DNA of 64,000 bases, from contig JAJZTQ010000008.1 in NCBI GenBank assembly GCA_021848825.1, positions 14,999 through 78,998 of the forward strand. The letters are read 5' to 3'. Of this stretch, positions 8,893 to 51,515 are shown piece by piece; within the stretch, counting starts at the first letter, position 1; the number at the start of each line of letters is the position of its first letter. The translations under genes and the position numbers were made by a program. The notes below the pieces were generated by a model that ran no database searches, had not been told where the DNA came from, and worked only from the letters and a program-made list of their open reading frames with translations. Origin of the DNA: Pseudomonadota bacterium (GTDB lineage Bacteria; Pseudomonadota; Gammaproteobacteria; Burkholderiales; JABEVD01).

Positions 8893-8929
8893 AAATGAAG
8901 GATTAGGCAGTAGAATTGCCAATTTTGCC

Positions 8930-9856
8930 ATGCAGGTTTTCCGCGGGATTCCCGAAAAGGCCGAAAAGCCTGTCGCCCTCACGATAGGCAATTTCGACGG
9001 GGTGCATATCGGGCACCAGTCAGTTCTTGCCCGCCTCAAGGAGAAGGCTGAATCGCTTTCGATTCCTGCCTGCGTGATGACTTTCGAACCCCATCCCAGG
9101 GAATTCTTCGATCCGGAAAATGCCCCGGCGAGACTCACCGACATGCGGGAGAAGCTCTCCATTTTCGCCAAGCTCGGCATGGATCGGGTCCATGTATGCC
9201 GCTTCGACAGGGATTTTGCGAAGATGACTGCAGCCGACTTCGAGGCTGGCATCCATGCCGGGCTCGATGCGAAATGGGTCCTGATCGGCGACGATTTCAG
9301 GTACGGCGCGAGGCGCACAGGCGACTTCGAATCGATGACCAGGGCGGCCGAGAAATTCGGCTTCGAAGTGGAAGCCATGCACAGCGTGAAGCTCGACGGT
9401 CAAAGGATTTCCAGCACCCTGGTCAGGGAAGCTGTTTTTTCCGGAAAACTGGATTTCGCGAGAAGGCTGCTCGGCAGGAATTACAGCATCGTTGGGCGGG
9501 TCGTGCACGGCAACAAGCTCGGCAAGAAAATAGGCTTCCCGACGGCCAACATCAGGCTCAGGCACAACAGGCCTCCGCTCTCCGGCATCCATGTGGTGGA
9601 AGTCCACGGCATAGCGGAAAATGCCTTGAGGGGGGTGGCAAGCCTAGGCGTGAGGCCGACGGTGATGAATGGCGGCAAGCCGGTGCTCGAAGTGTATCTG
9701 TTCGATTTCGAAGAAAACATATACGGCGCTCGCCTGCGGGTCGATTTTCTGTTCAAATTGAGGGATGAGGCAAAATTTCCGGATCTCGATTCCCTGAAGG
9801 CGCAGATCGCTCTGGATGCCGAGAACGCCAGGCAATATTTCGAAAATAGATCATGA
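8930..9856 (+). CDS. ribF: Bifunctional riboflavin kinase / FAD synthetase
   Basis: [11 protein letters not shown] nucleotidyltransferase motif and a C-terminal riboflavin-kinase domain. ATGA overlap with ileS. Confidence 0.95.
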
Positions 9857-39686: not shown

Positions 39687-39702
39687 TGGCATGAACATTG
39701 CT
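39687..39702 (+). promoter_or_regulatory. Candidate sigma54 (-24/-12) promoter TGGCATGAACATTGCT upstream of nasT
   Basis: GG and GC are spaced as in TGGCAC-N5-TTGCW; 32 nt upstream of the nasT ATG. Confidence 0.55.
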
Positions 39703-39733: not shown

Positions 39734-40309
39734 ATGTTGCGAGTAATGCTGATCGACGAGGACGAGGAAAGACGCGCCCTCCTGAACGGCGCGCTGCTCG
39801 AGAACGGCTATGAAATCGTGTCTGAAGATTCAGGCACGCAAAATCTTCACGACCTCGTGAAGAAAGCTTGTCCGGACGTGATCATCGTCGGAACGGACTC
39901 GCCCAGCCGGGACAGCCTGGAAGACATCTGCTTGCTGAGCCGCGATGCGCCTCGCCCCATCGTGATGTTCACGCATGACGGGGATCGGGAAAAGATCCGG
40001 GAAGCGATCAGGTCCGGCGTATCGGCCTATGTCGTCGACGGATTGAAAGGCGATCGCATCAGATCCCTTGTCGACGTGGCAATCGCCCGCTTCGAAGCGC
40101 ACCAGGCGCTGATGAACGAGCTCGATGCGATGCAGGGCAAGCTGGCTGACCGCAAGGTCGTCGAGCGCGCCAAGGGCATTCTGATGCAGAAGAAGAATTG
40201 CAGCGAGGAAGAGGCTTACCGGATCCTGCGCAAAGCGGCCATGGACAAGAACATGAAGCTTGTCGAAGTGGCGGCGCAATTGATCGACATGGCCAATCTT
40301 TTTACTTAG
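39734..40309 (+). CDS. nasT: ANTAR-domain response-regulator-like antiterminator NasT
   Basis: REC-like N-terminus (MLIDEDE...) and a C-terminal ANTAR domain (KVVERAKGILMQKKNCSEEEAYRILRKAAMDKNMKL). Confidence 0.85.
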   Translation: MLRVMLIDEDEERRALLNGALLENGYEIVSEDSGTQNLHDLVKKACPDVIIVGTDSPSRDSLEDICLLSRDAPRPIVMFTHDGDREKIREAIRSGVSAYVVDGLKGDRIRSLVDVAIARFEAHQALMNELDAMQGKLADRKVVERAKGILMQKKNCSEEEAYRILRKAAMDKNMKLVEVAAQLIDMANLFT

Positions 40310-40310
40310 G

Positions 40311-40368
40311 GCGATTCTCCAAAGGGGGGGAAACGCTCCGGGACCGAAGTCCCAACGGCAAAGGCGCC
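40311..40368 (+). promoter_or_regulatory. ANTAR-target-like leader 1: hexaloop hairpins GCGATTCTCC[AAAGGG]GGGGAAACGC and GGC[AAAGGC]GCC
   Basis: Both loops have A at position 1 and G at position 4. The second hairpin overlaps the terminator 5' arm. Confidence 0.6.
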
Positions 40369-40403
40369 ATCTGGATGATTTCATCCGGATGGCGCTTTTT
40401 TTT
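40364..40403 (+). terminator. Intrinsic terminator (14-bp stem with one G-U, then T8) between nasT and the porin gene
   Basis: GCGCCATCTGGATG/CATCCGGATGGCGC followed by TTTTTTTT. Confidence 0.8.
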
Positions 40404-40427: not shown

Positions 40428-41669
40428 ATGAAAAAAATTTGGCCAGGACTCTTTCTTCTCGCATCTTGCCAGGCGAGCGCCGATTCGCTGTCAGACATGA
40501 TAGCAGCCGGCAAGGCGGATCTGCAGCTTCGCCCTCGCTACGAATTCGTGCAGCAGGACGGCAAGCCGAACAATGCCAATGCCTATACCCTGCGCACGCT
40601 GCTGGGCTACAGCCTGAAACCTGAAGCGGGGTTCGGCGGAACGATCCAGTTCATCAACGTCAGCGCCCTGGGGGCCGAGCATTTCAACAGCACCCTGAAC
40701 GGCCACACTGCCTATCCTGTCGTGGCCGACCCTGGTGTGAGCGCCGTCAATCAGGCATTCCTGAGCTACGGGGGAATGCCCCGGACGAACCTGAAGCTCG
40801 GCAGGCAGATCATCATCCTCGACAATTCGAGATGGATAGGCAATGTCGATTTCCGCCAGAACATGCAGACGTTCGATGCCTTCAGTATCGAAAACAGCAG
40901 CCTGAAGAACACGAAGTTTTTCGTTTCGCGAATCGCCCGGGTCAAGGGAAGCTACGCCAATTTCCAGAGCCCCGTCGGATACAACCTGCAGCATGTGAAG
41001 GCAGACATCCTCCATGCGTCCTTTACGCCCTTCAAACAGACGACCTTGACGGCCTATGAATATTTCTACCAGGACGAAAGCTTCCCTCAGGGCTCGCCTT
41101 CGAATATTTCAAGCGCAACGCCCGGCCTGCGCGTCGATGGCTCGATAGGCGAGGGGCTCAGGATTCTCTATACCGCAGAATACGCGAAGCAGCGAGGCTA
41201 CGCAGGGGGCCACTCCGGGATGGATGCCAGATACGAGCTGATCGGGGGAGGGGCCGCCTATGGAAAACTCTACGCGCGTCTGGACTACGAAACGCTGGGT
41301 TCCAATTCGACCGGCACATACGGATTGCAGACCCCGCTCGCCACGAAGCATATCTTCAACGGCTGGGCGGACATGTTTCTCATGACGCCTGGAAAGGGCT
41401 TGAAGGACCTGTTCGCGACCCTGGGCGGAAAAGCGGGGCCATTGGACATGGTCGCCATGGTTCACGACTACAGGGCCGACTTCGATTCGACGCACTATGG
41501 ATCGGAATGGGATCTTTCGGCTTCCCATGCCTTCACCAGCCACCTTTCGGGAAGCCTCATCTATGCCGACTACAGGGCAAAGGACGGCGCGGGAGCCTTT
41601 TTTCCAGGCACCGCGGCGCCGAATGTGAACACCAAGAAAATGTGGCTTACCCTTTTGTACCGCTACTGA
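40428..41669 (+). CDS. Outer-membrane beta-barrel porin (alginate-export/AlgE-like family by eye)
   Basis: Signal peptide, alternating amphipathic beta pattern and C-terminal ...LLYRY. Confidence 0.65.
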   Translation: MKKIWPGLFLLASCQASADSLSDMIAAGKADLQLRPRYEFVQQDGKPNNANAYTLRTLLGYSLKPEAGFGGTIQFINVSALGAEHFNSTLNGHTAYPVVADPGVSAVNQAFLSYGGMPRTNLKLGRQIIILDNSRWIGNVDFRQNMQTFDAFSIENSSLKNTKFFVSRIARVKGSYANFQSPVGYNLQHVKADILHASFTPFKQTTLTAYEYFYQDESFPQGSPSNISSATPGLRVDGSIGEGLRILYTAEYAKQRGYAGGHSGMDARYELIGGGAAYGKLYARLDYETLGSNSTGTYGLQTPLATKHIFNGWADMFLMTPGKGLKDLFATLGGKAGPLDMVAMVHDYRADFDSTHYGSEWDLSASHAFTSHLSGSLIYADYRAKDGAGAFFPGTAAPNVNTKKMWLTLLYRY

Positions 41670-41715
41670 CGGGAACGATTATTGCTTCGGGCAGGGATGT
41701 CGATAAATTCAGGAG

Positions 41716-42975
41716 GTGGAGATGAGCGGAGAAGCCGATTCCGGGCGGCGTGATTTCTTCAGGCAGGGGGCAGCATTGCTTGGCGGGGCCGCGCTCTTTG
41801 GAATCATGCCCGCTGGAGCGCGCAGTTCAGCCTATGCTGCAGGTTCCGATGCGCCTGAAATGCAGGAAGTGAAAATAGGCTTCCTGCCTTTGACGGACTG
41901 CGCATCCGTGGTCATCGCCTCCGAAATGGGCTTCGACAGGAAATACGGCATCAGGATCATCCCGAAAAGGGAAGCTTCCTGGGCTACCGTGAGAGACAAA
42001 CTCGCAAGCGGCGAACTGCAGGCATCTCAAGCGCTTTACAGCATGGTTTACGGCATCCATCTCGGCGTGGGCGGGGAGAAGACGGACATGGCCGTGCTGA
42101 TGACCCTCAACAACAACGGCCAGGACATCGTGCTGTCAAGCAGGCTCAAGGAAAAAGGCGTGAGAAGCGGAGAAGCGCTCAAGCGCCTGGTGTCCATGGA
42201 GAAGCCCCATTCCGTCTTCGCCCAGACCTTCCCTACCGGAACGCATGCGATGTGGCTTTATTACTGGATGGCCGCGCATGGCATCGATCCGCTCAGGGAC
42301 GTCAACACCATCACCGTTCCCCCGCCCCTAATGGTTTCGGCCATGCAATCGGGAAACATGGACGGATTCTGCGCCGGCGAGCCATGGGGACCGATCGCCA
42401 TCCGGGAAGGGATCGGTTTCGCCGCCGCTTCTTCCCAGCAGATCTGGAAGGATCATCCGGAAAAGGTGCTGAGCGCGACACGGGATTTCGTGGACAGCCA
42501 CCCGAACACGGCCCGTGCGATGATCATGGCCATACTCGAGGCCTCCAGCTTCATCGATCACCCGGCAAACAGGCCGACGGTGGCCAATATCATCGCCGGA
42601 AAAAACTATGTCGACGCCCCGGTCGGGATCCTGGAAGGCCGCATGCAGGGCATCTACGATAACGGCCTGGGAAAGACATGGCAGGATCCGCATCACATGA
42701 AGTTTCACGGGGACGGGGAGGTCAATTTCCCTTACCTCTCCGACGGCATCTGGTTCATGACCCAGCTGCGGCGCTGGGGTCTCCTCAGGGAAGATCCGGA
42801 TTATGATGCAGTGGCCCGAACGATCAACAGGACTGAACTCTACACGGAAGCCGCGGCAGGGGCGAAGGTTTCCGTCCCCGCCGAACCCATGCGCTCCTCG
42901 ACGCTGATGGACGGCAGAACCTGGAACGGCAAGGACCCGAAAGCCTATGCCGACAGTTTCGAAATAAGGGCCTGA
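41716..42975 (+). CDS. NrtA/CmpA/NasS-family nitrate-binding protein with twin-arginine signal peptide
   Basis: AGGAGG SD. SGRRDFFRQGAALLGGAALFG Tat motif with an AYA cleavage site, then KIGFLPLTDCASVVIA, typical of the NrtA fold. Confidence 0.8.
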   Translation: MEMSGEADSGRRDFFRQGAALLGGAALFGIMPAGARSSAYAAGSDAPEMQEVKIGFLPLTDCASVVIASEMGFDRKYGIRIIPKREASWATVRDKLASGELQASQALYSMVYGIHLGVGGEKTDMAVLMTLNNNGQDIVLSSRLKEKGVRSGEALKRLVSMEKPHSVFAQTFPTGTHAMWLYYWMAAHGIDPLRDVNTITVPPPLMVSAMQSGNMDGFCAGEPWGPIAIREGIGFAAASSQQIWKDHPEKVLSATRDFVDSHPNTARAMIMAILEASSFIDHPANRPTVANIIAGKNYVDAPVGILEGRMQGIYDNGLGKTWQDPHHMKFHGDGEVNFPYLSDGIWFMTQLRRWGLLREDPDYDAVARTINRTELYTEAAAGAKVSVPAEPMRSSTLMDGRTWNGKDPKAYADSFEIRA

Positions 42976-43063: not shown

Positions 43064-43079
43064 AGGCACGGATGTTGCT
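43064..43079 (+). promoter_or_regulatory. Candidate sigma54 promoter AGGCACGGATGTTGCT upstream of the narK leader
   Basis: GGCAC-N6-TTGC with canonical GG/GC spacing. The predicted start is ~10 nt before leader hairpin 1. Confidence 0.6.
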
Positions 43080-43100: not shown

Positions 43101-43144
43101 GGTTTCCCAAAGGCGGGGAGCCGTTTCTCAGGACAAAGGCGTCC
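43101..43144 (+). promoter_or_regulatory. ANTAR-target-like leader 2: GGTTTCCC[AAAGGC]GGGGAGCC and GGAC[AAAGGC]GTCC
   Basis: Two hexaloops with A1/G4. Hairpin 2 shares 43138-43144 with the terminator stem. Confidence 0.7.
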
Positions 43145-43181
43145 ATGGCTGATATTTCAGCCATGGACGCCTTTTTGTTTT
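43138..43181 (+). terminator. Intrinsic terminator (15-bp perfect stem, 4-nt loop, TTTTTGTTTT) 16 nt upstream of narK
   Basis: GGCGTCCATGGCTGA-TATT-TCAGCCATGGACGCC read directly. Confidence 0.85.
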
Positions 43182-43196: not shown

Positions 43197-44408
43197 ATGA
43201 AAACGAGCTTCTGGAAGGCCGGGCATGCGCCCACGCTGTTTGCTGCGTTTCTCTATTTCGACGTCAGCTTCATGGTCTGGGTGATACTGGGTCCGCTCGG
43301 CGTCCAGATCGCTTCGTCATTGGGACTGAATGCGGCCCAGAAAGGCATGATGGTCGCCACCCCCGTCCTCGCCGGCGCGCTTCTCAGGATCGTGATGGGC
43401 ATGCTGGTCGACCATCTGAAGCCGAAGCTGGCCGGCATCGTCGGCCAGCTTGCCGTGATGCTTGCACTCGTCCTGGCCTGGCTCTTCGGCATCCATGATT
43501 ACAGCCAGGTGCTGATACTGGGCGCGTTCCTCGGCTTTGCCGGCGCCTCCTTCGCAGTGGCATTGCCGCTCGCTTCCCGCTGGTATCCTCCCGAGCACCA
43601 GGGCACTGCGCTGGGCATTGCCGGGGCGGGCAATTCGGGAACCGTTCTGGCTGCCCTTTTCGCACCCACCCTTGCGCTCTGGTATGGCTGGAACAACGTC
43701 CTGGGATTCGCCCTGATTCCGCTTTTCATCGCCTTCATGGTCTATGTTTTCGTGGCGAAGGACAGCCCTGAATGCCCTCCCCCCAAGACGCTTGTCGAAT
43801 ATGCCCGGGTATTGAAGGACAGGGATGCATGGTGGTTCATGTTCTTCTACAGCGTGACTTTCGGCGGCTTCGTCGGACTCGCCTCTTCACTCTCGATCTA
43901 TTTTCATGACCAGTACGGGCTTTCCGCAGTCAAGGCGGGCTTCTACACGGCCGCCTGCGTATTTGCAGGGTCTCTCGTCCGTCCCATGGGCGGCGCGCTG
44001 GCGGACAGGATAGGGGGCGTGCGCACCCTTTCCTTCATGTACGTGATTGCCTCGATCAGCCTCTTCGTCATGAGCTCCGGTCTTTCCGATGTCAACGCCA
44101 CGCTGGCCGTGTGCGTCTTGGCCATGCTTTCTCTGGGCATGGGCAACGGCGCGATTTTCCAGCTCGTTCCCCAGCGCTTCAGGAAGGAAATCGGGGTGAT
44201 GACGGGGCTCGTCGGCATGGCGGGCGGAATCGGCGGATTCTATCTCGCATCGAGCCTCGGCTACTTCAAGGCGCATACGGGCGACTACAAAATCGGCCTG
44301 ATGATCTTCGCCGGCATGGCCGTCCTGGCGCTGACCGGATTGAGCAGCGTGAAGAAGAGATGGAGAACCACATGGGGCGCACTGAATCTCAGCGCGGCGA
44401 AGATCTGA
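43197..44408 (+). CDS. narK: MFS nitrate/nitrite transporter (NarK/NasA type)
   Basis: 12-TM MFS with nitrate-signature-like Gly-rich motifs (GFAGASFAV, GIAGAGNSG, GMAGGIGG). ATG 43197 follows GGAAAAGGAA. Confidence 0.9.
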   Translation: MKTSFWKAGHAPTLFAAFLYFDVSFMVWVILGPLGVQIASSLGLNAAQKGMMVATPVLAGALLRIVMGMLVDHLKPKLAGIVGQLAVMLALVLAWLFGIHDYSQVLILGAFLGFAGASFAVALPLASRWYPPEHQGTALGIAGAGNSGTVLAALFAPTLALWYGWNNVLGFALIPLFIAFMVYVFVAKDSPECPPPKTLVEYARVLKDRDAWWFMFFYSVTFGGFVGLASSLSIYFHDQYGLSAVKAGFYTAACVFAGSLVRPMGGALADRIGGVRTLSFMYVIASISLFVMSSGLSDVNATLAVCVLAMLSLGMGNGAIFQLVPQRFRKEIGVMTGLVGMAGGIGGFYLASSLGYFKAHTGDYKIGLMIFAGMAVLALTGLSSVKKRWRTTWGALNLSAAKI

Positions 44409-46075
44409 TGGATTTCCTGAGCATCTCGCACGGCGCTTCAAGCGACAGGGGTCGGCGCGACCGCAACGAAGACTTCTTCGGCGCGGTGACCCCCGAAGAC
44501 CGCCTGCTCGACACCCGCGGCATCCTGGTGGCCATCGCTGACGGCGTGAGCGGCAATACGGGCGGGAGGGAAGCAGCTGAATACACGGTGAGAAGCGTGC
44601 TGAGCGACTATTATGCGACGCCCGAGACATGGGGAATCCCGAATTCCCTGGACAAGCTTCTCTCGGCCGCCAATCGCTGGCTGCTCGCCCAGAAGGGGAG
44701 TCTCACCGGCATGGCGAGCACGGTGAGCCTGCTCGTCCTGAAAGGGGATCGCTATACCATCGCCCATGTCGGGGATACCCGGATCTACCTCAGGCGCGGC
44801 GAAAGCCTGACACTCCTCACCACGGACCATGTCTGGGAAGGCCCGGAACTGCGCCATGTGTTGAAAAGAGCCGTGGGCCTGGATCAGCACCTGACGGTCG
44901 ATTACAGCGAAGGGCAATTGAGGGAAAAGGATGTCTTCCTGCTCGTCACGGACGGCGTGTGGGAGCGTCTCGGACAGAAGAGGATGCACGAGATCCTCAA
45001 CCTTCACGAAAATCCCGAAAGAAGCGCAAAAGTGCTCGTCGAACAGGCCCTGGCTTCGGGCGGACAGGACAACGCGACCGCCCAGGTGGTGAAGATAGAA
45101 AGCCTGGGACGGGGCATGCTTCTCGAAGGCCGGGATCTCCCGCTTCCGCCCAGGTTGAAAGTCGGGCAGAAACTGGACGGATACGAGATCCTGGAAATCA
45201 TGCACGATTCCCGGGAAACGATCCTCTACAAGGTCAGGGAAGAATCGAGCCGCAAGCATTTCGTGCTGAAAACGCTGCAGCCATCGATGCAGCAGGACGA
45301 GAAGGCCTGCAGCAGCCTGCTCACGGAGGAATGGCTGGGCAAGCGCATCCAGTCCCATTATTTCCCGCAAGTCGTCCCAGCCTCTTCCGGAAAACGCACT
45401 GCGCTCTATTACGTGATGACCTGGCATGACGGCGCGACGCTTGCCGCACATATCGAAAGCGGAAGGCATTTCCCCGTCGTCGAGGCCAGACAGATCGGCA
45501 TCAGGCTGGCCAAGGGACTGGCCGCCCTGCACCGGCTCAACATCATCCATCGCGACATCAAGCCCGACAATATCCTGCTCGGAGAAGACGGAAAACTGCG
45601 CATCCTCGATCTGGGCGTGGCCCTGAATCCCGCCCTGAACGCCGAAGAAAACGATGCCAATCCGGGGACGCCGAGCTACATGGCGCCGGAGCGCATCAAG
45701 GGGGAAGAGGCGACCTTCGGCAGCGATCTCTACAGTGTCGGCGTCACGCTCTATCATCTGCTGACAAGGAAATATCCGTACGGCGAAATCGAGCCTTTCC
45801 AGCATCCCAGATTCCCGGATCCTGTTCCGCCCACGCGCTATCGCCCGGACATCCCGGGATGGTTCGAAGCCATCATCCTCAAGGCTGTGCAGAGAAACCC
45901 GTCGCATCGGTACGAATTTCCGGAAGCGCTTCTTCTCGATCTCGAACTTGGCGAGCAGCCTGCATTCCAGAGCCCGTCAAGCCCGAAAAGAAGCCGGCCT
46001 TCCGTCTGGCAGATTGCTGCCGTCCTGTCCGTCCTTTTGAACCTTTTCCTGCTCTACCTGGCTGGAATCGGCTGA
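44408..46075 (+). CDS. Fused PP2C-type Ser/Thr phosphatase / Hanks-type Ser/Thr kinase with C-terminal membrane anchor
   Basis: PP2C motifs RDRNEDFF, ADGVSG, TDGVWE, GGQDNAT. Kinase motifs VLKTL, HRDIKPDNILL, DLG, SYMAPE. C-terminal hydrophobic helix. The ATG overlaps the narK stop. Confidence 0.85.
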   Translation: MDFLSISHGASSDRGRRDRNEDFFGAVTPEDRLLDTRGILVAIADGVSGNTGGREAAEYTVRSVLSDYYATPETWGIPNSLDKLLSAANRWLLAQKGSLTGMASTVSLLVLKGDRYTIAHVGDTRIYLRRGESLTLLTTDHVWEGPELRHVLKRAVGLDQHLTVDYSEGQLREKDVFLLVTDGVWERLGQKRMHEILNLHENPERSAKVLVEQALASGGQDNATAQVVKIESLGRGMLLEGRDLPLPPRLKVGQKLDGYEILEIMHDSRETILYKVREESSRKHFVLKTLQPSMQQDEKACSSLLTEEWLGKRIQSHYFPQVVPASSGKRTALYYVMTWHDGATLAAHIESGRHFPVVEARQIGIRLAKGLAALHRLNIIHRDIKPDNILLGEDGKLRILDLGVALNPALNAEENDANPGTPSYMAPERIKGEEATFGSDLYSVGVTLYHLLTRKYPYGEIEPFQHPRFPDPVPPTRYRPDIPGWFEAIILKAVQRNPSHRYEFPEALLLDLELGEQPAFQSPSSPKRSRPSVWQIAAVLSVLLNLFLLYLAGIG

Positions 46076-46103: not shown

Positions 46104-48536
46104 ATGCAGAAACTGAAGCTTGTGGTAGTGGGAAACGGCATGGCCGGCATGAAGGTCGTGGAAGAATTGTTGAAAATAGGGCCCGATCTCTACGAAATCA
46201 CGGTATTCGGCGCAGAGCCCTATCCCAATTACAACCGCATCATGCTCTCCCCGGTTCTCGCCGGGGAACAGAAATTCGAAGACATCATTCTCAACAGCCT
46301 GGGCTGGTACGAAGAAAACGGCATCAGGCTGCATCTGGGCAAGAAAGTCCTCAGAATAGACAGGCAAAGGCGGATTGTCGAAGCCGAAGAAGGCATGGAG
46401 GTGGAATACGACAGACTGCTGCTCGCCACCGGATCGAGCCCTTTCATCCTGCCGGTGCCGGGACGGGATCTCGATGGGGTGATCGCGTACCGCGACATCC
46501 AGGATACCGAAAAGATGATCGAGACGGCAGAGAAGCACCGGCATGCCGTGGTCATCGGCGGCGGACTGCTGGGGCTGGAAGCGGCGAACGGCCTCAGGCT
46601 CCGCGGCATGGACGTGACCGTGGTTCATCTCGCGTCATGGCTGATGGAGCGCCAGCTCGACAGGCATGCCGGCAAGATGCTTCAATGCGAACTCGAGAAG
46701 CGGGGATTGAAATTTCTGCTCGAGAAGAAAACCGAAGCGCTGCTCGGGAATGAAGGCCGGGTATGCGGGGTGCGCTTCTCCGACGGCGGGGAAATCCCGG
46801 CGGACCTGGTGGTGATGGCAGTCGGGATCAAGCCCAACACGCAGCTTGCGGAATCGGCAGGAATACATTGCAACAGGGGAATCGTGGTCGACGACACGAT
46901 GCAGACATTCGATCCGAAAATCTACGCAGTCGGGGAATGCGTCTCCCACAGAGGAACGAGCTATGGTCTGGTCGCGCCGCTCTTCGACATGGCAAAAGTC
47001 TGCGCGAACCATCTGGCGATGATGGGAATAGGAAGATATGCCGGATCGTTCACCGCGACGAAGCTCAAGGTGACGGGAATCGATCTCTTTTCTGCCGGAA
47101 AGTTCGAAGGCGACGAGCATTCCGAGGAGATCGTGCTGAACGACGTGGCGGGCGGGGTCTACAAGAAGATCACGATCCGCGACGGCAAGATCGTCGGCAC
47201 GGTGCTTTATGGCGATACCGTCGACGGACAATGGTATTTCAGGATGCTGAAGGAAGGGCAGGACATCGGCGAAATCAGGGGCAACCTGATGTTCGGCCAG
47301 AGTCATCTCGGCAACGCGGGACACGAGGGTCGCGTGCAGGCGTCCAGCATGACGGACGACATGGAAGTGTGCGGATGCAACGGCGTGTGCAAGGGCACGA
47401 TCACGAAAGCGATCAAGGAAAAGGGGCTTTTCACGCTCGAAGAGGTGAGAAAGCATACCAAGGCATCGAGCTCCTGCGGATCCTGCACCGGACTCGTCGA
47501 ACAGATTCTCGCATCCGAACTGGGAGGCGGCTATTCGCCGAAAACCAGCGCCGAAAAGCCGCTCTGTGCGTGCACCGAGCATACCCATGCCGACCTGCGC
47601 AAGGCCATCAGGGAAGAGAAGCTGCTCTCGATTCCGGAAGTGATGGCCTTCATGAACTGGAAGACGCAGAACGGCTGCTCGACCTGCCGTCCCGCGCTCA
47701 ATTATTATCTCATCTCGACCTGGCCTCACGAGGCGATGGACGACCCCCAGTCGCGCTTCGTCAACGAAAGGGTTCATGCCAACATCCAGAAGGACGGGAC
47801 TTTTTCGGTTGTGCCGAGGATGTACGGCGGGATCACCAATCCCGAACAGCTGCGCAGGATCGCGGATGTCGCCGACAAATACCGGGTGCCGATGGTCAAG
47901 GTGACGGGCGGGCAGCGAATCGACCTGCTCGGCGTCAGGCGGGAGGATCTGCCTGCAATATGGTCGGATCTCGACATGCCGTCGGGCTATGCCTACGGCA
48001 AGTCGATACGCACCGTGAAGACCTGCGTCGGCACCGAATTCTGCCGCTTCGGCACGCAGGATTCGACAGGCCTCGGCATCATGCTCGAGCAGGCATTCGA
48101 CAGGATGTGGGCGCCGCACAAGGTGAAGATGGCCGTATCGGGATGTCCGAGGAACTGCGCCGAATCCACCATCAAGGATGTCGGCATCATCGGGGTCGAA
48201 TCGGGCTGGGAAATCTATGTCGCGGGCAACGGCGGCATCAAGGCGGAGGTTTCGCAATTTCTCGCGAAGGTGAAGACGAAGGAGGAAGCCATGGAATATT
48301 CGGGCGCCTTCCTCCAGCTCTACCGGGAGGAAGCCTATTATCTGGAAAGGACAGTCCACTGGATCGGGCGGGTCGGACTCGACTACGCGAGATCGAGGGT
48401 GGCTGAAGATGAGGAAAACCGGCGCGCATTGTACCAGCGCCTGCTCTATGCGCTCTCCGGCGAGCGCGATCCCTGGAAGTCCGTTGTCGAAAGGGAAAGA
48501 AAGCCTCTTTTCGAATCGCTCATGGTGGAGGCATGA
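46104..48536 (+). CDS. nirB: Assimilatory nitrite reductase [NAD(P)H] large subunit
   Basis: VVVGNGMAG FAD motif, BFD-like CGCNGVC...CGSC, and the siroheme/[4Fe-4S] cysteines (CVGTEFC...SGCPRNC). AAGGAG SD before ATG 46104. Confidence 0.95.
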   Translation: MQKLKLVVVGNGMAGMKVVEELLKIGPDLYEITVFGAEPYPNYNRIMLSPVLAGEQKFEDIILNSLGWYEENGIRLHLGKKVLRIDRQRRIVEAEEGMEVEYDRLLLATGSSPFILPVPGRDLDGVIAYRDIQDTEKMIETAEKHRHAVVIGGGLLGLEAANGLRLRGMDVTVVHLASWLMERQLDRHAGKMLQCELEKRGLKFLLEKKTEALLGNEGRVCGVRFSDGGEIPADLVVMAVGIKPNTQLAESAGIHCNRGIVVDDTMQTFDPKIYAVGECVSHRGTSYGLVAPLFDMAKVCANHLAMMGIGRYAGSFTATKLKVTGIDLFSAGKFEGDEHSEEIVLNDVAGGVYKKITIRDGKIVGTVLYGDTVDGQWYFRMLKEGQDIGEIRGNLMFGQSHLGNAGHEGRVQASSMTDDMEVCGCNGVCKGTITKAIKEKGLFTLEEVRKHTKASSSCGSCTGLVEQILASELGGGYSPKTSAEKPLCACTEHTHADLRKAIREEKLLSIPEVMAFMNWKTQNGCSTCRPALNYYLISTWPHEAMDDPQSRFVNERVHANIQKDGTFSVVPRMYGGITNPEQLRRIADVADKYRVPMVKVTGGQRIDLLGVRREDLPAIWSDLDMPSGYAYGKSIRTVKTCVGTEFCRFGTQDSTGLGIMLEQAFDRMWAPHKVKMAVSGCPRNCAESTIKDVGIIGVESGWEIYVAGNGGIKAEVSQFLAKVKTKEEAMEYSGAFLQLYREEAYYLERTVHWIGRVGLDYARSRVAEDEENRRALYQRLLYALSGERDPWKSVVERERKPLFESLMVEA

Positions 48537-48841
48537 TGGAAAACTGGATCAAGGTATGCGAACTGGAAGACATCCCTCAGCTAGGCGCCAGGGTGGTCAA
48601 GGGAAAGTCGTGCGAAATCGCGCTCTTCAGGGAGGGCGACAGGATCTATGCGCTGCACGACAAGTGCCCTCACAAGGGCGGCCCGCTCTCGCAGGGAATC
48701 GTCAGCAAGGGTCGGGTCACCTGCCCCCTTCACGGCATGAACATCGGCCTGGAAGACGGACGGGCGATTTCTCCTGACGAAGGCTGCACCGAGACTTTTT
48801 CAGTCAGGATCGAAGAGGGCGCAGTCTATATTTCACTCTGA
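48533..48841 (+). CDS. nirD: Nitrite reductase small subunit (Rieske-like fold)
   Basis: 102 aa with CPHKGGPLSQG...CPLHG. ATGA overlap with nirB. Confidence 0.9.
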   Translation: MMENWIKVCELEDIPQLGARVVKGKSCEIALFREGDRIYALHDKCPHKGGPLSQGIVSKGRVTCPLHGMNIGLEDGRAISPDEGCTETFSVRIEEGAVYISL

Positions 48842-48851
48842 TCGGGAAGAA

Positions 48852-51515
48852 ATGGGAACAAGGACAGTTCGCTCGACCTGCTGCTATTGCGGCGTCGGCT
48901 GCGGCGTGATCATAGGCGCGCGGGAAGGCGTCATCGAATCGGTCAGGGGCGACCCCGACCATCCCGCCAATCACGGCAAGCTTTGCACCAAGGGCGCCAC
49001 GCTCCATCTGACCGCAGGCGGCCATGGCCGCCTGCTTCACCCTTCCCTTTCAGGGAAGAGAATCGGATGGAACGAAGCGCTCGACCATGCCGCAAGGCGC
49101 TTCGCCGAAACAATCGTGAAGCACGGGCCGGAAAGCGTGGCATTCTACATTTCCGGCCAGCTCCTCACCGAGGATTATTACGTCTTCAACAAGCTGGTCA
49201 AGGGCCTGATCGGCACCAACAACATCGACACCAATTCGAGGCTCTGCATGTCGTCAAGCGTGGCGGGGTACAAGGCGACCCTCGGCGCGGATGCGCCGCC
49301 AGCCTGTTACGAGGACATCGATCAGGCGCAATGCATCCTGATCGCCGGATCCAACACCGCGCTCGCCCACCCCGTTCTTTTCAGGCGCATCGAGGCAGCG
49401 AGGGAGAGAAACCCCGATCTGAAGGTCATCGTCATCGACCCCAGGAAAACCGACACCGCAAGAGCGGCAGACCTTCATCTGCCCATCCTTCCGGGGACGG
49501 ACGTCGCCCTCTTCAACGGCATGCTGCATGTGCTGCTCTGGGAAAACCTCATAGACAGGGATTACATCGATGCCCATACGGAAAATTTCGATCGCCTCAA
49601 ATCGATCGTGCACGAATATACGCCGCGTCATGTCGCCCGCCTTTGCGGCATCACTGAAGAAGATCTCGTCAGGGCATCGCTCTGGTTCGGCAATTCGCCA
49701 TCATCCCTCTCCCTCTATTGCCAGGGTCTCAACCAGTCCGTCCATGGCACGGACAAGAACGGCGCGCTGATCAATCTCCATCTCGCAACCGGAAAGATGG
49801 GAAAGCCTGGATCGGGACCCTTTTCCCTGACAGGTCAGCCCAATGCCATGGGCGGCAGGGAAGTGGGCGGGATGGCGAATCTCCTTTCGGGTCACAGGGA
49901 TCTCTCGGACCCTAAGCACAGGCAGGAGGTGGCCGATCTATGGGGAATCGATTCCGTTCCTGAAAAACCGGGAAAGACCGCAGTGGAGATGTTCGAAGCG
50001 CTGCAGGCAGGGGAAATCAGGGCGATCTGGATCGCCTGCACCAATCCCGCCCAGTCCATGCCCGATCTGGCGAAGATCCATGATGCGCTGGAAAAGGCGG
50101 ATTTCGTCGTCGTCCAGGATGCATTTCGCGACACCGAGACGGCGCGCCATGCCGATCTCCTTCTTCCCGCCTCGACCTGGGCCGAAAAGGAAGGCACCGT
50201 GACCAATTCGGAAAGAAGGATCACGCGGGTGAGGGCTGCGGTCCGTCCCCCTGGCGAGGCAAGGGCGGATTGGGAAATCGCGGCCGATTTTGCATTGAGG
50301 CTGGGGAAGCTGCTGGGGAAAAATGCCGGTCGCCTTTTCCCGTACAGGCATCCCGAGGAGATATTTCTCGAGCACAGGGAATCGACAAGGGGAAGGGATC
50401 TCGACATCACCGGGCTCGGTTACGCCATGCTCGAAGAGCAGGGTCCCCAGCAATGGCCTTGTCCGGAAGGCATGAAATCCGGGAAAAAGCGCCTTTACGA
50501 CGAAGGCATATTCCCGACTGCGACAGGACGGGCGAGATTCCACGCGGCCGAATACCAGGGTACCTCGGAAGAAACGGATGCCCGCTATCCTTTCCATCTC
50601 ACCACGGGCAGGCTGCGCGACCAGTGGCACGGCATGACGAGGACGGGCAGGACGGGGCGCCTCTTCAGCCACGATCCGGAAGCCAGTCTTTCCATGAATC
50701 CCGAAGACATGAAATCGAGACAGCTGATTTCGGGCGACATCGTCAGGGTGAAAAGCAGAAGGGGCGAGATGATCGTCTCTCTCAGGCCTGACCCCGACAT
50801 CAGGCAGGGGCAGGTCTATCTGCCGATGCACTGGGGCGGCCGTTATACAGGCGGATTCGGGGTGAACGGGCTCACCGTCGGGGATTTCGATCCCGTTTCC
50901 AAGCAGCCTGAACTCAAGCATGCAGCCGTGATGGTGGAGAAGGTCGAACTCGCCTGGACAGTCTCGGTGCTGAGAAGCGGCGACGCCCTGGAATTCATGG
51001 AAAGGGCTCAGCCCATTCTGAAGCATTTCGATTACGCGAGCGCCACGCTTTTCGGCAGGGAAGAGACGATATTCTCCTTGAAGGCCGGCTGCCTTGCCGC
51101 GCCGGATGCCGATCTCGTTCGCGAGATCGACCGGGTCTTCGATCTGGATGCGGAAGACTGCATGGTTTACCGCGACATCGGATCAGGGATCGACAAGCTG
51201 GTGAAGATCGAAGGGGGGCTCGCGGCAGGGGTCCGCTTCGTCGGCGAATCCGCGGCGCGTCAATGGCTGATGGAAGCGATGGCATCGCGTGCGGATGTTT
51301 CTCTCGTCCGCAGATGGCTGCTTGCGCCGATGTCCGCTCCTCCCACAGTCGAGATGCGGGGCAGGATCGTCTGCAACTGCCTGGACGTCTCAGAGAGCGA
51401 GATAGTCGGATCAGGCCTCGATCTCGCCGGGCTTCAGGCAAAATACAAATGCGGCACCCAATGCGGATCCTGCCTGCCCGAGATCAGGAAACTCCTGGAA
51501 TTGAACGGGCATTGA
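48852..51515 (+). CDS. nasC: Assimilatory nitrate reductase catalytic subunit (molybdopterin) with C-terminal BFD-like [2Fe-2S] domain
   Basis: N-terminal CCYCGVGC...C [4Fe-4S] motif, MopB domains and C-terminal CNC...CGTQCGSC. Confidence 0.9.
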   Translation: MGTRTVRSTCCYCGVGCGVIIGAREGVIESVRGDPDHPANHGKLCTKGATLHLTAGGHGRLLHPSLSGKRIGWNEALDHAARRFAETIVKHGPESVAFYISGQLLTEDYYVFNKLVKGLIGTNNIDTNSRLCMSSSVAGYKATLGADAPPACYEDIDQAQCILIAGSNTALAHPVLFRRIEAARERNPDLKVIVIDPRKTDTARAADLHLPILPGTDVALFNGMLHVLLWENLIDRDYIDAHTENFDRLKSIVHEYTPRHVARLCGITEEDLVRASLWFGNSPSSLSLYCQGLNQSVHGTDKNGALINLHLATGKMGKPGSGPFSLTGQPNAMGGREVGGMANLLSGHRDLSDPKHRQEVADLWGIDSVPEKPGKTAVEMFEALQAGEIRAIWIACTNPAQSMPDLAKIHDALEKADFVVVQDAFRDTETARHADLLLPASTWAEKEGTVTNSERRITRVRAAVRPPGEARADWEIAADFALRLGKLLGKNAGRLFPYRHPEEIFLEHRESTRGRDLDITGLGYAMLEEQGPQQWPCPEGMKSGKKRLYDEGIFPTATGRARFHAAEYQGTSEETDARYPFHLTTGRLRDQWHGMTRTGRTGRLFSHDPEASLSMNPEDMKSRQLISGDIVRVKSRRGEMIVSLRPDPDIRQGQVYLPMHWGGRYTGGFGVNGLTVGDFDPVSKQPELKHAAVMVEKVELAWTVSVLRSGDALEFMERAQPILKHFDYASATLFGREETIFSLKAGCLAAPDADLVREIDRVFDLDAEDCMVYRDIGSGIDKLVKIEGGLAAGVRFVGESAARQWLMEAMASRADVSLVRRWLLAPMSAPPTVEMRGRIVCNCLDVSESEIVGSGLDLAGLQAKYKCGTQCGSCLPEIRKLLELNGH

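What the first reader, a model, noticed from the sequence alone, without database searches (positions are those of the whole stretch)
44408..46075. Tail-anchored PP2C phosphatase / Ser-Thr kinase fusion translationally coupled to the nitrate transporter
The 555-codon ORF begins at an ATG that overlaps the narK stop (TGATG). It lies between the transporter and nirBD-nasC, behind the same sigma54/ANTAR leader. Seen directly: PP2C motifs (RDRNEDFF, IADGVSG, VTDGVWE, GGQDNAT) and Hanks kinase motifs (FVLKTL, HRDIKPDNILL, DLG instead of DFG, GTPSYMAPE). The glycine-rich ATP loop is missing (LEIMHDSRETILYKV). There is a single C-terminal hydrophobic helix (VWQIAAVLSVLLNLFLLYLAGIG), so both catalytic domains should be cytoplasmic and membrane-tethered. 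A kinase and its opposing phosphatase in one polypeptide, next to a transporter, suggests a self-resetting phospho-switch. It could act on NarK, on the reductases, or on NasT, whose usual partner NasS is not adjacent. From memory, a Ser/Thr kinase gene occupies the equivalent slot in the Pseudomonas aeruginosa nas cluster, and I know of no assigned function for it. I regard this as the best candidate here for an uncharacterised regulatory module.
Basis: partly seen in the sequence, partly recalled or inferred. Interest (0 to 1): 0.7.

Follow-up and report, generated by a model that had tools for sequence, protein, structure and literature searches.

The report
Membrane-anchored kinase-phosphatase paired with nitrate transporter
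This gene encodes a protein kinase fused to its opposing phosphatase and anchored to the membrane by its tail; relatives of the gene almost always sit beside a transporter gene for a nitrogen compound, so it probably switches nitrate uptake on and off by phosphorylating the transporter, though nobody has tested this.

Summary
ORF 44408-46075 encodes 555 aa: a PP2C phosphatase, a Hanks-type Ser/Thr kinase and one C-terminal hydrophobic helix. Its ATG overlaps the narK stop (TGATG). It lies in a sigma54/ANTAR-controlled narK-fusion-nirB-nirD-nasA operon.

All catalytic residues of both domains are conserved in the family. The glycine-rich loop is replaced family-wide by L-H-x-S-x-R-S.

The gene is an ordinary member of a large family that NCBI names 'bifunctional protein-serine/threonine kinase/phosphatase'. 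I found no experimental work on it.

New here:
- In 48 of 48 related metagenomic loci that could be judged, narK lies directly upstream of the fusion, while nirB, nirD, nasA and nasT change position.
- More distant branches sit beside other transporters: NrtP-like MFS, FNT nitrite channels, an APC permease, Amt. Fusion clades follow the partner type.
- Fusion-linked NarKs carry a near-invariant cytoplasmic tail, RWRTTWG, conserved at the protein level. Nine close NarKs without the fusion nearby lack the Thr-Thr pair.

Best reading (about 0.5): a dedicated, membrane-tethered kinase/phosphatase that gates NarK by reversible tail phosphorylation. This would parallel plant NRT2.1 Ser501 and the PP2C CEPH. 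The mechanism is inferred, not shown.

The parts
43065..43079 (+). sigma54-type -24/-12 promoter (GGCACGGATGTTGCT) ahead of narK
   Evidence: One of only two matches to GGCAYG-N4-TTGCW in the 64 kb window; 0.21 expected by chance. The other match is at 39688-39702, ahead of nasT.
43101..43174 (+). ANTAR-type leader. Hairpin 1 (43101-43122) has loop AAAGGC. A possible hairpin 2, GGAC-AAAGGC-GUCC (43131-43144), overlaps the 5' arm of an 18-bp intrinsic terminator (43135-43174, followed by a T run).
   Evidence: RNA fold -54.3 kcal/mol, z = -6.7. Terminator scan. Sequence read. That NasT binds here is inferred from the hexaloop pattern known for ANTAR targets.
43197..44408 (+). narK, NNP-family MFS nitrate/nitrite transporter, 403 aa
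   Evidence: Pfam MFS_1 and TIGR00886 NarK family at 297.7 bits. The start agrees with public gene calls.
44358..44378 (+). Codons for the NarK C-terminal cytoplasmic tail motif R388-W-R-T391-T392-W-G394, the proposed phospho-acceptor
   Evidence: Present in 52 of 53 complete fusion-linked NarKs and found in 65 loci with freely varying synonymous codons. TT is absent from 9 of 9 close NarKs without the fusion nearby and from E. coli NarK. Its role as a phosphosite is inferred.
44408..46075 (+). PP2C phosphatase / Hanks-type kinase fusion, 555 aa. An alternative in-frame start at 44372 gives 567 aa.
   Evidence: AlphaFold2 model: mean pLDDT 94.5, pTM 0.88.
44408..45103 (+). PP2C (PPM) phosphatase domain, residues 1-232. 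Metal-binding Asp residues: D22, D45, D123, D182, D221.
   Evidence: Pfam PP2C_2/PP2C. The Asp residues are invariant or at least 90% conserved in 76 diverse members. They align to the ADG, GD, DG and DN motifs of tPphA, 2J82. Fold matches to tPphA, PstP and PppA have TM 0.8-0.86.
45173..45952 (+). Protein kinase domain, about residues 256-515. Catalytic residues: K288, E307, H381-R-D383, N388, D401-L-G403, P427-E428. The Gly-rich loop is replaced by M-H-D-S-R-E-T (265-271).
   Evidence: Pfam Pkinase 122 bits. Catalytic residues at least 90% conserved. Loop consensus L-H-x-S-x-R-S. Fold match to PknB with TM 0.88.
45998..46072 (+). C-terminal hydrophobic helix (residues 531-555) acting as a tail anchor. 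It is preceded by conserved W534 and no residue follows it.
   Evidence: Kyte-Doolittle 2.43. Helix 531-554 in the model. 75 of 76 family members have such a C-terminal segment, with a median of 2 residues after it.
46104..48536 (+). nirB, nitrite reductase large subunit. It starts 28 nt after the fusion stop, with no terminator between.
   Evidence: TIGR02374 947 bits. Terminator scan.
48533..48841 (+). nirD, nitrite reductase small subunit
   Evidence: TIGR02378 94 bits.
48852..51515 (+). Assimilatory nitrate reductase (nasA/nasC type)
   Evidence: Pfam Molybdopterin, Molydop_binding, Fe4S4 and BFD domains. NasC/NasA NCBIfam hits are below cut-off.
39734..40309 (+). nasT (receiver + ANTAR antiterminator). 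It lies behind the sigma54 promoter at 39688 and is followed by a second hexaloop leader and terminator (40310-40399).
   Evidence: Pfam ANTAR and Response_reg. Fold. Promoter match.

Best explanation
The gene encodes a catalytically competent two-in-one enzyme: a PP2C phosphatase and a Ser/Thr kinase on one chain. A C-terminal tail anchor holds it at the cytoplasmic face of the inner membrane.

It is made from the same nitrate- and nitrogen-limitation-induced mRNA as NarK, and its start overlaps the narK stop. It therefore appears together with the transporter.

Its most likely job is to control the neighbouring transporter directly. The kinase would phosphorylate, and the phosphatase dephosphorylate, the short cytoplasmic C-terminal tail of NarK (the Thr-Thr pair in RWRTTWG). 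Nitrate uptake could then be switched within seconds, for instance when ammonium appears or nitrite builds up, without waiting for transcriptional control.

The protein has no sensor domain. The balance of the two activities is therefore presumably set by the transporter's conformation or by a cytoplasmic metabolite or protein.

Shown: the architecture, the conserved catalytic residues, the tail anchor, operon membership, invariant pairing with transporters, and co-occurrence of the TT tail with the fusion.

Inferred: that NarK is the substrate, that the TT pair is the site, the direction of the effect, and the signal.
For: 1. Both active sites are conserved in 76 members down to about 30% identity: D22, D45, D123, D182, D221; K288, E307, HRD, N388, D401, APE.
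2. The AlphaFold2 model is very confident (pLDDT 94.5), and pTM 0.88 indicates a fixed two-domain arrangement. The domains match PknB and tPphA/PstP folds.
3. A tail anchor is present in 75 of 76 members.
4. The gene shares an operon with narK, with no terminator between them.
5. In 48 of 48 metagenomic loci with enough upstream DNA, narK lies directly upstream on the same strand. The gene downstream varies: nirD, nasA, nirB, nasT or others.
6. In Pseudomonas the pair stays with narK while nirB, nirD and nasA are absent from the 10 kb on either side.
7. Of 12 full-length proteobacterial loci from genomes, 11 have a nitrogen-compound transporter gene adjacent: NarK 4, NrtP-like MFS 4, FNT 1, Amt 1, and one more NarK arranged divergently.
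8. Plasmid-borne members sit directly after FNT channels (6), NarK (3) or an APC permease (1).
9. Fusion clades follow partner type in a neighbour-joining tree.
10. RWRTTWG is present in 52 of 53 complete fusion-linked NarKs from Alpha-, Beta- and Gammaproteobacteria. Synonymous codons vary freely.
11. Nine NarKs of the same subfamily (51-65% identical) with no fusion within 6-8 kb lack the TT pair.
12. FNT partners also end in a conserved basic Thr motif, TH(V/Y/I)(R/K)T.
13. Precedent: plant NRT2.1, of the same NNP family, is inactivated by phosphorylation of C-terminal Ser501 and reactivated by the PP2C CEPH (PMC10944928).
Against: - There is no biochemical or genetic evidence for any member. 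The library searches found only a listing of PA1782 as a predicted kinase and a remark on synteny.
- A P. putida transposon fitness study reports phenotypes on nitrate for the transporter, nasT and nasS, and its text never contains the word 'kinase'. Loss of the fusion may therefore have little effect on steady-state growth.
- The Gly-rich ATP loop is absent, so ATP handling may be atypical.
- The TT/fusion correlation is not phylogenetically corrected. The 9 negative cases come from only three clades.
- 'No fusion within 6-8 kb or on the plasmid' does not prove that the genome lacks one.
- One fusion-linked NarK (L006) has RWTRTW instead of the motif.
- NrtP-like and FNT partners have different tails, so there is no single shared motif.
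- Gene adjacency cannot tell 'acts on the transporter' from 'is informed by the transporter'.
Confidence: 0.5

Rival explanations
1. The transporter is the sensor and not the target. The fusion sits next to NarK (or FNT, or the others) to read its transport state, as with a transceptor. It then phosphorylates soluble targets such as NasT, PII/GlnK, NirBD or the nitrate reductase, so that downstream assimilation or gene expression matches flux.
For: - The fusion has no sensor domain of its own.
- It is always beside a transporter.
- This window has NasT but no cytoplasmic NasS in the cluster; the NasS-like protein has a Tat signal.
- The PP2C domain's best sequence match among solved structures is tPphA, the cyanobacterial PP2C. 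That it dephosphorylates PII-P is from my own knowledge.
Against: - The fusion occurs both with and without NasS, NasT and nirBD in the neighbourhood, so no soluble partner is conserved.
- The similarity to tPphA is generic for bacterial PP2Cs.
- This reading does not explain why the Thr-Thr tail of NarK tracks the fusion.
Confidence: 0.2
2. Only one of the two domains is catalytic. The kinase-like domain, which lacks a Gly-rich loop, would be a pseudokinase that serves as a docking or regulatory module for the phosphatase, or the reverse. The protein would then oppose an unlinked enzyme and would not form a closed cycle.
For: - The GxGxxG loop is replaced family-wide by L-H-x-S-x-R-S.
- The Pkinase HMM match begins at model position 16.
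- In many Pseudomonas members the precomputed Pfam annotation lists no PP2C hit, which shows that the phosphatase domain there is divergent.
Against: The beta3 Lys, alphaC Glu, HRD Asp, Asn, DxG Asp and APE residues are at least 90% conserved. So are all PP2C metal-binding Asp residues. Such conservation is not expected in a pseudoenzyme.
Confidence: 0.12
3. A self-resetting timer. The kinase autophosphorylates, the fused phosphatase removes the phosphate in cis, and the phosphorylation state of the fusion itself controls binding to and blocking of the transporter.
For: - Both activities lie on one chain in a fixed relative orientation (pTM 0.88).
- From my own knowledge, Hanks kinases commonly autophosphorylate.
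Against: - The activation loop has no conserved Ser/Thr other than the canonical GT, and it carries a conserved acidic residue (E/D in 49 of 76 at position 412) that could stand in for a phosphate.
- No conserved Ser/Thr-rich juxtamembrane segment was seen.
Confidence: 0.1

Closest known systems
PA1782 of Pseudomonas aeruginosa and its P. putida-group homologues (NCBI name 'bifunctional protein-serine/threonine kinase/phosphatase')
   Same: Same family and same genomic slot. Pseudomonas loci L005 and L016 read nasS-nasT-narK-fusion, with 41-44% identity over the full length and the same C-terminal anchor.
   Different: In the P. putida-group loci, nirBD and nasA are not within 10 kb. Nothing is known experimentally: PA1782 is listed only as a predicted kinase (PMC11197903).
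Cognate Hanks kinase / PP2C phosphatase pairs of Gram-positive bacteria (PknB-PstP, Stk1-Stp1, PrkC-PrpC)
   Same: A Hanks-type kinase and a PPM phosphatase are encoded together and act on the same substrates. The closest solved folds are PknB (TM 0.88) and PstP, Stp1 and tPphA (TM 0.8-0.86).
   Different: Those pairs are two separate proteins. The kinase spans the membrane once in mid-chain and carries extracellular PASTA sensor domains. Here both activities are fused, there is no sensor domain, the anchor is at the extreme C-terminus, the Gly-rich loop is missing, and the gene is tied to a transporter. Scores are far below the NCBIfam cut-offs: 146 against 450 for PknB_PASTA_kin, and 127 against 230 for Stp1.
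Plant NRT2.1 control by C-terminal Ser501 phosphorylation and the PP2C CEPH
   Same: The transporter family is the same (NNP, as NarK; family assignment from my own knowledge). A C-terminal cytoplasmic phosphosite inactivates uptake when ammonium/nitrate supply is high, and a PP2C reactivates it (PMC10944928). This is the closest functional analogue to what is proposed here.
   Different: It is eukaryotic and the kinase and phosphatase are separate soluble proteins. There is no sequence relation between the tails. For the bacterial system the phosphosite is only predicted.
Cyanobacterial PII-P phosphatase PphA/tPphA
   Same: It is the best sequence match among solved structures for the PP2C domain (E 1e-17). 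From my own knowledge, it is a PP2C that affects nitrate uptake through the phosphorylation state of a regulator.
   Different: tPphA is a stand-alone soluble enzyme that acts on PII. It has no kinase domain, no membrane anchor and no linkage to narK.
AceK and HprK/P (single-protein kinase/phosphatases)
   Same: One polypeptide both adds and removes a phosphate on a dedicated substrate (from my own knowledge).
   Different: The folds are unrelated, one shared active site performs both reactions, and the proteins are soluble. Here two separate canonical domains do the two reactions.

Membership tests
PPM/PP2C protein phosphatases | Sequence match to the PP2C profile above the curated threshold | tested here: met
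   PF13672 PP2C_2 48.7 bits (cut-off 24) and PF00481 30.0 bits (cut-off 20.3).
PPM/PP2C protein phosphatases | Conserved metal-coordinating Asp residues (ED, DG, GD, DG and DN motifs) | tested here: met
   D22, D45-G46, D123, D182-G183 and D221-N222 are invariant or at least 90% conserved in 76 members. They align to the same motifs of tPphA.
PPM/PP2C protein phosphatases | Mn2+/Mg2+-dependent phosphoserine/threonine phosphatase activity | not testable with these tools
   Needs an enzyme assay.
Hanks-type (eukaryote-like) Ser/Thr protein kinases | Match to the Pkinase profile above threshold, and a kinase fold | tested here: met
   PF00069 122.3 bits (cut-off 31.7). Foldseek to PknB: E 5e-18, TM 0.88.
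Hanks-type (eukaryote-like) Ser/Thr protein kinases | Catalytic residues: beta3 Lys, alphaC Glu, HRD Asp, catalytic-loop Asn, DFG Asp, APE | tested here: met
   K288, E307, H381-R-D383, N388, D401-x-G403 and P427-E428 are at least 90% conserved.
Hanks-type (eukaryote-like) Ser/Thr protein kinases | Glycine-rich ATP-binding loop GxGxxG (subdomain I) | tested here: not met
   The window has M-H-D-S-R-E-T. The family consensus is L-H-x-S-x-R-S, with Gly at the middle position in only 16 of 76. It is an atypical member of the superfamily.
Hanks-type (eukaryote-like) Ser/Thr protein kinases | ATP-dependent phosphotransfer to Ser/Thr | not testable with these tools
   Needs an enzyme assay.
'Bifunctional protein-serine/threonine kinase/phosphatase' family (database-named, uncharacterised) | Full-length architecture: N-terminal PP2C, then kinase, then a C-terminal hydrophobic tail, about 550-590 aa | tested here: met
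   Single full-length alignments to representatives down to about 30% identity. 75 of 76 have the C-terminal hydrophobic segment. Plasmid homologues carry that product name.
'Bifunctional protein-serine/threonine kinase/phosphatase' family (database-named, uncharacterised) | Gene adjacent to a transporter gene for a nitrogen compound | tested here: met
   In the window narK is directly upstream. The same holds in 48 of 48 metagenomic loci that could be judged, in 11 of 12 genome loci and in 11 of 13 plasmid loci inspected.
Tail-anchored inner-membrane proteins | A single transmembrane helix at the extreme C-terminus, with no N-terminal signal or other membrane segment | tested here: met
   Residues 531-555 score KD 2.43 and the next best segment 1.1. 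Model helix 531-554.
Tail-anchored inner-membrane proteins | Membrane insertion with the catalytic domains facing the cytoplasm | not testable with these tools
   Inferred from the need for ATP and the absence of an export signal. Needs fractionation or reporter fusions.
PknB/Stk1 PASTA kinases | NCBIfam equivalog score and extracellular PASTA repeats | tested here: not met
   NF033483 146.6 bits against a cut-off of 450. Nothing follows the membrane helix.
Stp1/IreP PP2C phosphatases | NCBIfam equivalog score | tested here: not met
   NF033484 127.2 bits against a cut-off of 230.

The most novel reading that the evidence does not exclude
Bacteria may have a general, so far undescribed way to control uptake of nitrogen sources after translation. 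Dedicated tail-anchored kinase/phosphatase enzymes would have diversified together with their partner transporters (NarK, NrtP-like MFS, FNT nitrite channels, APC permeases, possibly Amt). They would gate these transporters by reversibly phosphorylating short basic Thr-containing C-terminal tails: RWRTTWG in NarK and TH-x-(R/K)-T in FNT. This would be the bacterial counterpart of plant NRT2.1 Ser501 control. It could also be the missing mechanism behind the rapid ammonium inhibition of nitrate uptake in heterotrophic bacteria.
Probability: 0.35. Interest if true: 0.8.

Novelty: new variant of a known kind. Interest (0 to 1): 0.6.

Why it matters
Transcriptional control of bacterial nitrate assimilation is well mapped (NtrBC/sigma54, NasS-NasT or NasR antitermination). 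How heterotrophic bacteria shut nitrate uptake quickly when a better nitrogen source appears is not. From my own knowledge, no bacterial nitrate or nitrite transporter is known to be regulated by Ser/Thr phosphorylation.

This family is very common: thousands of sequences across Alpha-, Beta- and Gammaproteobacteria, Pseudomonas among them, and it also occurs on plasmids. It is always placed beside a transporter.

The analysis gives a concrete experiment in genetically tractable Pseudomonas: a named enzyme, a named substrate and a seven-residue candidate site. If the hypothesis holds, it would add a new regulatory layer to the bacterial nitrogen cycle and reveal a parallel with plant NRT2.1 regulation. 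It would also assign a function to a large family of 'predicted kinases'.

If the hypothesis fails, the gene remains an ordinary member of an annotated family of unknown function.

Tried and rejected
- The genome-contig scan with the 21-sequence alignment was swamped by the generic kinase motif HRDxKPxN. Only about 16 of its 80 loci were full-length relatives. I therefore ran the metagenome scan with a family-specific C-terminal signature, PYGE(I/V)EPF. That scan samples mainly the clade 48-61% identical to the window.
- Rfam found no known RNA family anywhere in the window.
- The AlphaFold-database fold library was not available. No solved structure covers both domains (TM normalised to the query at most 0.43).
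- Ten literature searches (PA1782, PA1783/PA1781, PP_2091/2092, nitrate assimilation with kinase, Hanks/PP2C with nitrate transporter) found no functional study.
- I considered whether the invariance of RWRTTWG reflects nucleotide-level constraint from the fusion's ribosome-binding site or start codon, since GGAG and an ATG lie inside those codons in the window. I rejected this: synonymous codons vary freely, only 5-8 of 65 loci have those signals, and the motif persists where the fusion is divergent or 2 kb away.
- I considered whether the fusion replaces the missing cytoplasmic NasS. I rejected this because it also occurs in clusters with a Tat-less NasS next to nasT.
- A defence-system reading (NCBIfam MADS6, BREX PglW and lanthionine synthetase hits) is rejected. 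All these hits are far below cut-off and arise from the kinase domain only.

Full report
**1. The observation**

The ORF at 44408-46075 on the + strand is open for 555 codons. Its ATG shares one base with the narK stop (TGATG).

Pfam places a PP2C phosphatase domain at residues 14-222 and a protein kinase domain at 274-505, both above the curated thresholds. The best NCBIfam matches are PknB-type kinases and Stp1-type phosphatases, but all are far below the equivalog cut-offs.

The only hydrophobic segment is the last 25 residues (Kyte-Doolittle 2.43).

The Pkinase match starts at model position 16, and the GxGxxG loop is replaced by MHDSRET.

One detail differs. Public gene calls use an in-frame ATG at 44372, with GGAG six bases upstream, which gives 567 aa. 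More distant homologues start at the position equivalent to 44408. The upstream ATG exists in only 5 of 65 related loci. Either start overlaps narK.

The window is identical over this cluster to a contig of the metagenome-assembled genome GCA_027331305.1.

**2. Context in the window**

The gene order on the + strand is as follows.

| Element | Coordinates | Evidence |
|---|---|---|
| sigma54-type promoter | 39688 | |
| nasT | 39734-40309 | |
| Leader with hexaloop hairpins and terminator | 40310-40399 | |
| Porin | 40428-41669 | |
| NrtA/NasS-family binding protein | 41722-42975 | |
| Second sigma54-type promoter | 43065 | |
| Leader | 43101-43174 | |
| narK | 43197-44408 | |
| The fusion | 44408-46075 | |
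| nirB, nirD, assimilatory nitrate reductase | to 51515 | |

The two promoter matches are the only ones in the 64 kb window; 0.21 are expected by chance.

The narK leader has a first hairpin with loop AAAGGC. A second possible hairpin, GGAC-AAAGGC-GUCC, overlaps the 5' arm of an 18-bp terminator. This is the layout expected for ANTAR antitermination.

No terminator lies between narK, the fusion and nirB.

The NasS-like protein carries a twin-arginine signal (RRDFF...AYA). It is probably periplasmic, so it is unlikely to be the cytoplasmic partner of NasT.

**3. What the protein is**

A word-indexed search found at least 7479 proteins at E <= 1e-20. Where a source names them, NCBI calls them 'bifunctional protein-serine/threonine kinase/phosphatase'.

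An exhaustive search of 50%-identity representatives found 2196 clusters at E <= 1e-30. Single full-length alignments hold down to about 30% identity.

In an alignment of 76 diverse members, these residues are invariant or at least 90% conserved:
- the PP2C metal-binding aspartates D22, D45, D123, D182 and D221;
- the kinase residues K288, E307, H381/D383, N388, D401/G403 and P427/E428.

The aspartates align with the ADG, GD, DG and DN motifs of tPphA, the best sequence match among solved structures.

The Gly-rich loop is replaced family-wide by L-H-x-S-x-R-S. The residue after the DFG aspartate is Leu or Phe about equally often, so DLG is not unusual here. The activation loop has no conserved Ser/Thr except the canonical GT, and it has a conserved acidic residue.

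Of the 76 members, 75 end in a hydrophobic helix, with a median of two residues after it.

AlphaFold2 with this alignment gives mean pLDDT 94.5 and pTM 0.88, which means a confidently fixed two-domain arrangement plus a terminal helix at 531-554.

Foldseek matches PknB for the kinase (TM 0.88) and tPphA, PstP, PppA and Stp1 for the phosphatase. No solved structure spans both domains.

**4. Neighbourhood census**

*Metagenomic loci.* I scanned metagenome contigs with a family-specific signature and obtained 80 loci, 48-61% identical to the window. Using the window's own proteins as tblastn probes, all 48 loci with enough upstream DNA have narK directly upstream on the same strand. The rest of the cluster is rearranged freely. 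Examples:
- nirB-narK-fusion-nirD-nasA
- nirB-nirD-narK-fusion
- narK-fusion-nasA-nirB-nirD
- narK-fusion-nasT

*Genome loci.* Among species-representative genomes:
- Pseudomonas vlassakiae and P. japonica have nasS-nasT-narK-fusion, with no nirBD or nasA within 10 kb.
- Methylomonas and a Comamonadaceae genome have narK arranged divergently.
- Marinobacterium (two genomes), Porticoccus and Colwellia have a roughly 500-aa NrtP-like MFS transporter directly upstream.
- A Hyphomicrobiales contig has nirB-nirD-FNT-fusion.
- One alphaproteobacterium has an ammonium transporter arranged divergently.
- One locus has no transporter.

*Plasmids.* Thirty-seven records carry a member.
- Azospirillum, Skermanella and Methylocystis members lie next to narK.
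- Acinetobacter, Psychrobacter, Cupriavidus, Ideonella, Pseudoalteromonas and Methylobacterium members lie directly after a formate/nitrite-transporter-family gene. Cyanase, nirBD or nitrate-sensing regulators are often nearby.
- A Burkholderia member follows an APC permease.
- A Shewanella member faces an MFS gene.
- An Acidithiobacillus copy is flanked by insertion sequences.

In a neighbour-joining tree the fusion proteins group by partner type.

The conserved partner is thus the transporter. It is not the reductases and not NasT.

**5. A candidate target site**

Fifty NarK proteins from fusion-containing loci were aligned. Their last cytoplasmic segment, directly after the final membrane helix, reads V-K-x-R-W-R-T-T-W-G almost without exception. 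This includes Pseudomonas (65% identical overall) and Methylomonas (48%).

Azospirillum, Methylocystis and Skermanella NarKs, also fusion-linked, have the same motif. In total 52 of 53 carry it; L006 has RWTRTW.

Nine NarKs of the same subfamily (51-65% identical to the window's) have no fusion within 6-8 kb, and none of their plasmids appears in the fusion hit list. All nine lack the Thr-Thr pair.

| Organism | Tail |
|---|---|
| Acetobacter | RRRWMAKS |
| Komagataeibacter | RRRWAAER |
| Acidiphilium | RRRWRADF |
| Sphingomonas NIC1 | RGWRSRWG |
| S. parapaucimobilis | TRWRRSWG |
| Blastomonas | TRWRATWS |
| Novosphingobium | GRWRATWK |
| Paenibacillus (1) | QWKKTWF |
| Paenibacillus (2) | SWKRTWI |

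E. coli NarK has no such tail.

In the window these codons also contain the GGAG and the alternative ATG, so I checked whether the conservation could be at the nucleotide level. Across 65 occurrences the Arg, Thr and Gly codons vary freely, and only 5-8 have those signals. The constraint is therefore on the protein.

The FNT partners, 66-83% identical across three proteobacterial classes, also end in a conserved basic Thr motif, L-Y-(T/S/F)-T-H-(V/Y/I)-(R/K)-T. The NrtP-like partners end in a different conserved tail, LPDGTVQLI(D/E)V.

The correlation is suggestive, but it is not corrected for phylogeny. The negative cases come from three clades.

**6. Most likely mechanism**

I commit to the following, with confidence of about 0.5.

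The protein is an active kinase plus an active phosphatase. It is tethered to the cytoplasmic face of the inner membrane and made in step with NarK. It sets the phosphorylation state of NarK's C-terminal Thr-Thr pair and so gates nitrate uptake faster than transcription can.

The lack of any sensor domain suggests that the signal reaches the enzyme through the transporter's conformation or through a cytoplasmic metabolite or protein.

The lack of a conserved activation-loop phosphosite argues against the phosphatase acting mainly on the kinase itself.

Shown:
- the architecture and residue conservation;
- the tail anchor;
- operon membership;
- transporter pairing and co-diversification;
- the tail-motif association.

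Inferred:
- the substrate and the site;
- the sign of the effect;
- the signal.

The rivals are a transceptor-type relay to soluble targets (0.2), one domain being non-catalytic (0.12), and an autophosphorylation timer (0.1).

**7. Comparison with what is known**

The domains are ordinary PPM and Hanks-type folds. The protein fails one classic kinase hallmark, the Gly-rich loop. It also fails the equivalog thresholds for PknB/Stk1 and Stp1, so it should not be filed under those.

It is a regular member of the database-named bifunctional kinase/phosphatase family, which includes the Pseudomonas nas-cluster kinase.

In the searchable literature I found only two mentions:
- PA1782 is listed among predicted, unconfirmed kinases (PMC11197903).
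- A 2026 preprint notes that nirB is syntenic with nasA, nrtP/narK and a 'pknD' kinase and guesses at a regulatory role (10.64898/2026.09.23.753953).

A P. putida fitness study of nitrogen sources reports the transporter, nasT and nasS, and its text never contains the word 'kinase'.

The nearest functional analogue is plant NRT2.1, which I know to be of the same transporter family. Phosphorylation of its C-terminal Ser501 shuts uptake, and the PP2C CEPH reopens it (PMC10944928).

**8. Verdict**

The gene itself is not new; it is an ordinary member of an annotated, widespread but uncharacterised family. What is worth pursuing is the family-level pattern found here:
- the pairing with transporters, invariant with narK among close relatives and frequent in the distant branches sampled;
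- co-diversification with partner type;
- a near-invariant Thr-Thr tail that tracks the enzyme.

Together these turn a vague 'predicted kinase' into a directly testable hypothesis for post-translational control of bacterial nitrate uptake.

Interest is 0.6. Novelty: a new variant of a known kind, namely a fused, sensor-less, tail-anchored, transporter-dedicated form of the Hanks kinase/PP2C module.

Noticed in passing
window 40428-42975: A porin gene (Alginate_exp family, 40428-41669) lies between nasT and narK. It is followed by an NrtA/NasS-family binding-protein gene (41722-42975) that carries a twin-arginine export signal (SGRRDFFRQGAALLGGAALFGIMPAGARSSAYA). The cluster has no ABC permease or ATPase genes. 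The result is a periplasmic nitrate-binding protein with only an MFS transporter nearby, and a NasT with no cytoplasmic NasS in the cluster. The same Tat-type N-terminus occurs in L160, L149, L133, L150, L099 and L161. Tat-less versions sit next to nasT in L005, L016, L110, L122 and L130.
   Followed up: partly
window 39688-39702 and 40310-40399: A second sigma54-type promoter precedes nasT. A second ANTAR-style leader (hairpin loop AAAGGG, then GGC-AAAGGC-GCC overlapping a strong terminator) lies immediately after nasT and ahead of the porin gene. NasT may therefore control read-through out of its own gene.
   Followed up: partly
window 44362-44374: GGAG and an in-frame ATG (44372) lie inside the narK codons for W-R-T-T-W. 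Gene callers use this ATG as the fusion start (567 aa). Only 5 of 65 related loci have the ATG and 8 of 65 the GGAG, so the signals are lineage-specific. The real start in this organism is undecided.
   Followed up: yes
L175, L176, L178, L179, L181, L182, L012 (FNT genes directly upstream of the fusion): A distinct subfamily of formate/nitrite transporters begins MAYLAPxEFxxKMVDAGESK and ends LY(T/S/F)TH(V/Y/I)(R/K)T. It is 66-83% identical across Alpha-, Beta- and Gammaproteobacteria and is always followed by a fusion gene. Cyanase (cynS) lies next to it in Acinetobacter and Psychrobacter plasmids, so the substrate may be nitrite or cyanate.
   Followed up: partly
L183 (Burkholderia sp. PAMC 26561 plasmid) and L177 (Acidithiobacillus caldus megaplasmid): A deep branch of the fusion family lies beside an APC-family permease and 'FMN-binding glutamate synthase family'/glxC genes, not beside nitrate genes. 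This hints that the family also serves transporters of organic nitrogen compounds. The A. caldus copy is flanked by ISL3 elements.
   Followed up: no
L007, L010, L013, L014 (about 8300-9950): Marine Gammaproteobacteria pair the fusion with a roughly 500-aa NrtP-like MFS transporter. It is about 30% identical to the window's NarK, has a long central insert, and ends in the conserved tail LPDGTVQLI(D/E)V, which differs from RWRTTWG.
   Followed up: partly
window 44438-45907 (- strand): A 489-codon open frame runs antisense inside the fusion gene. It looks like a shadow ORF of G+C-rich coding sequence. I did not examine it further.
   Followed up: no
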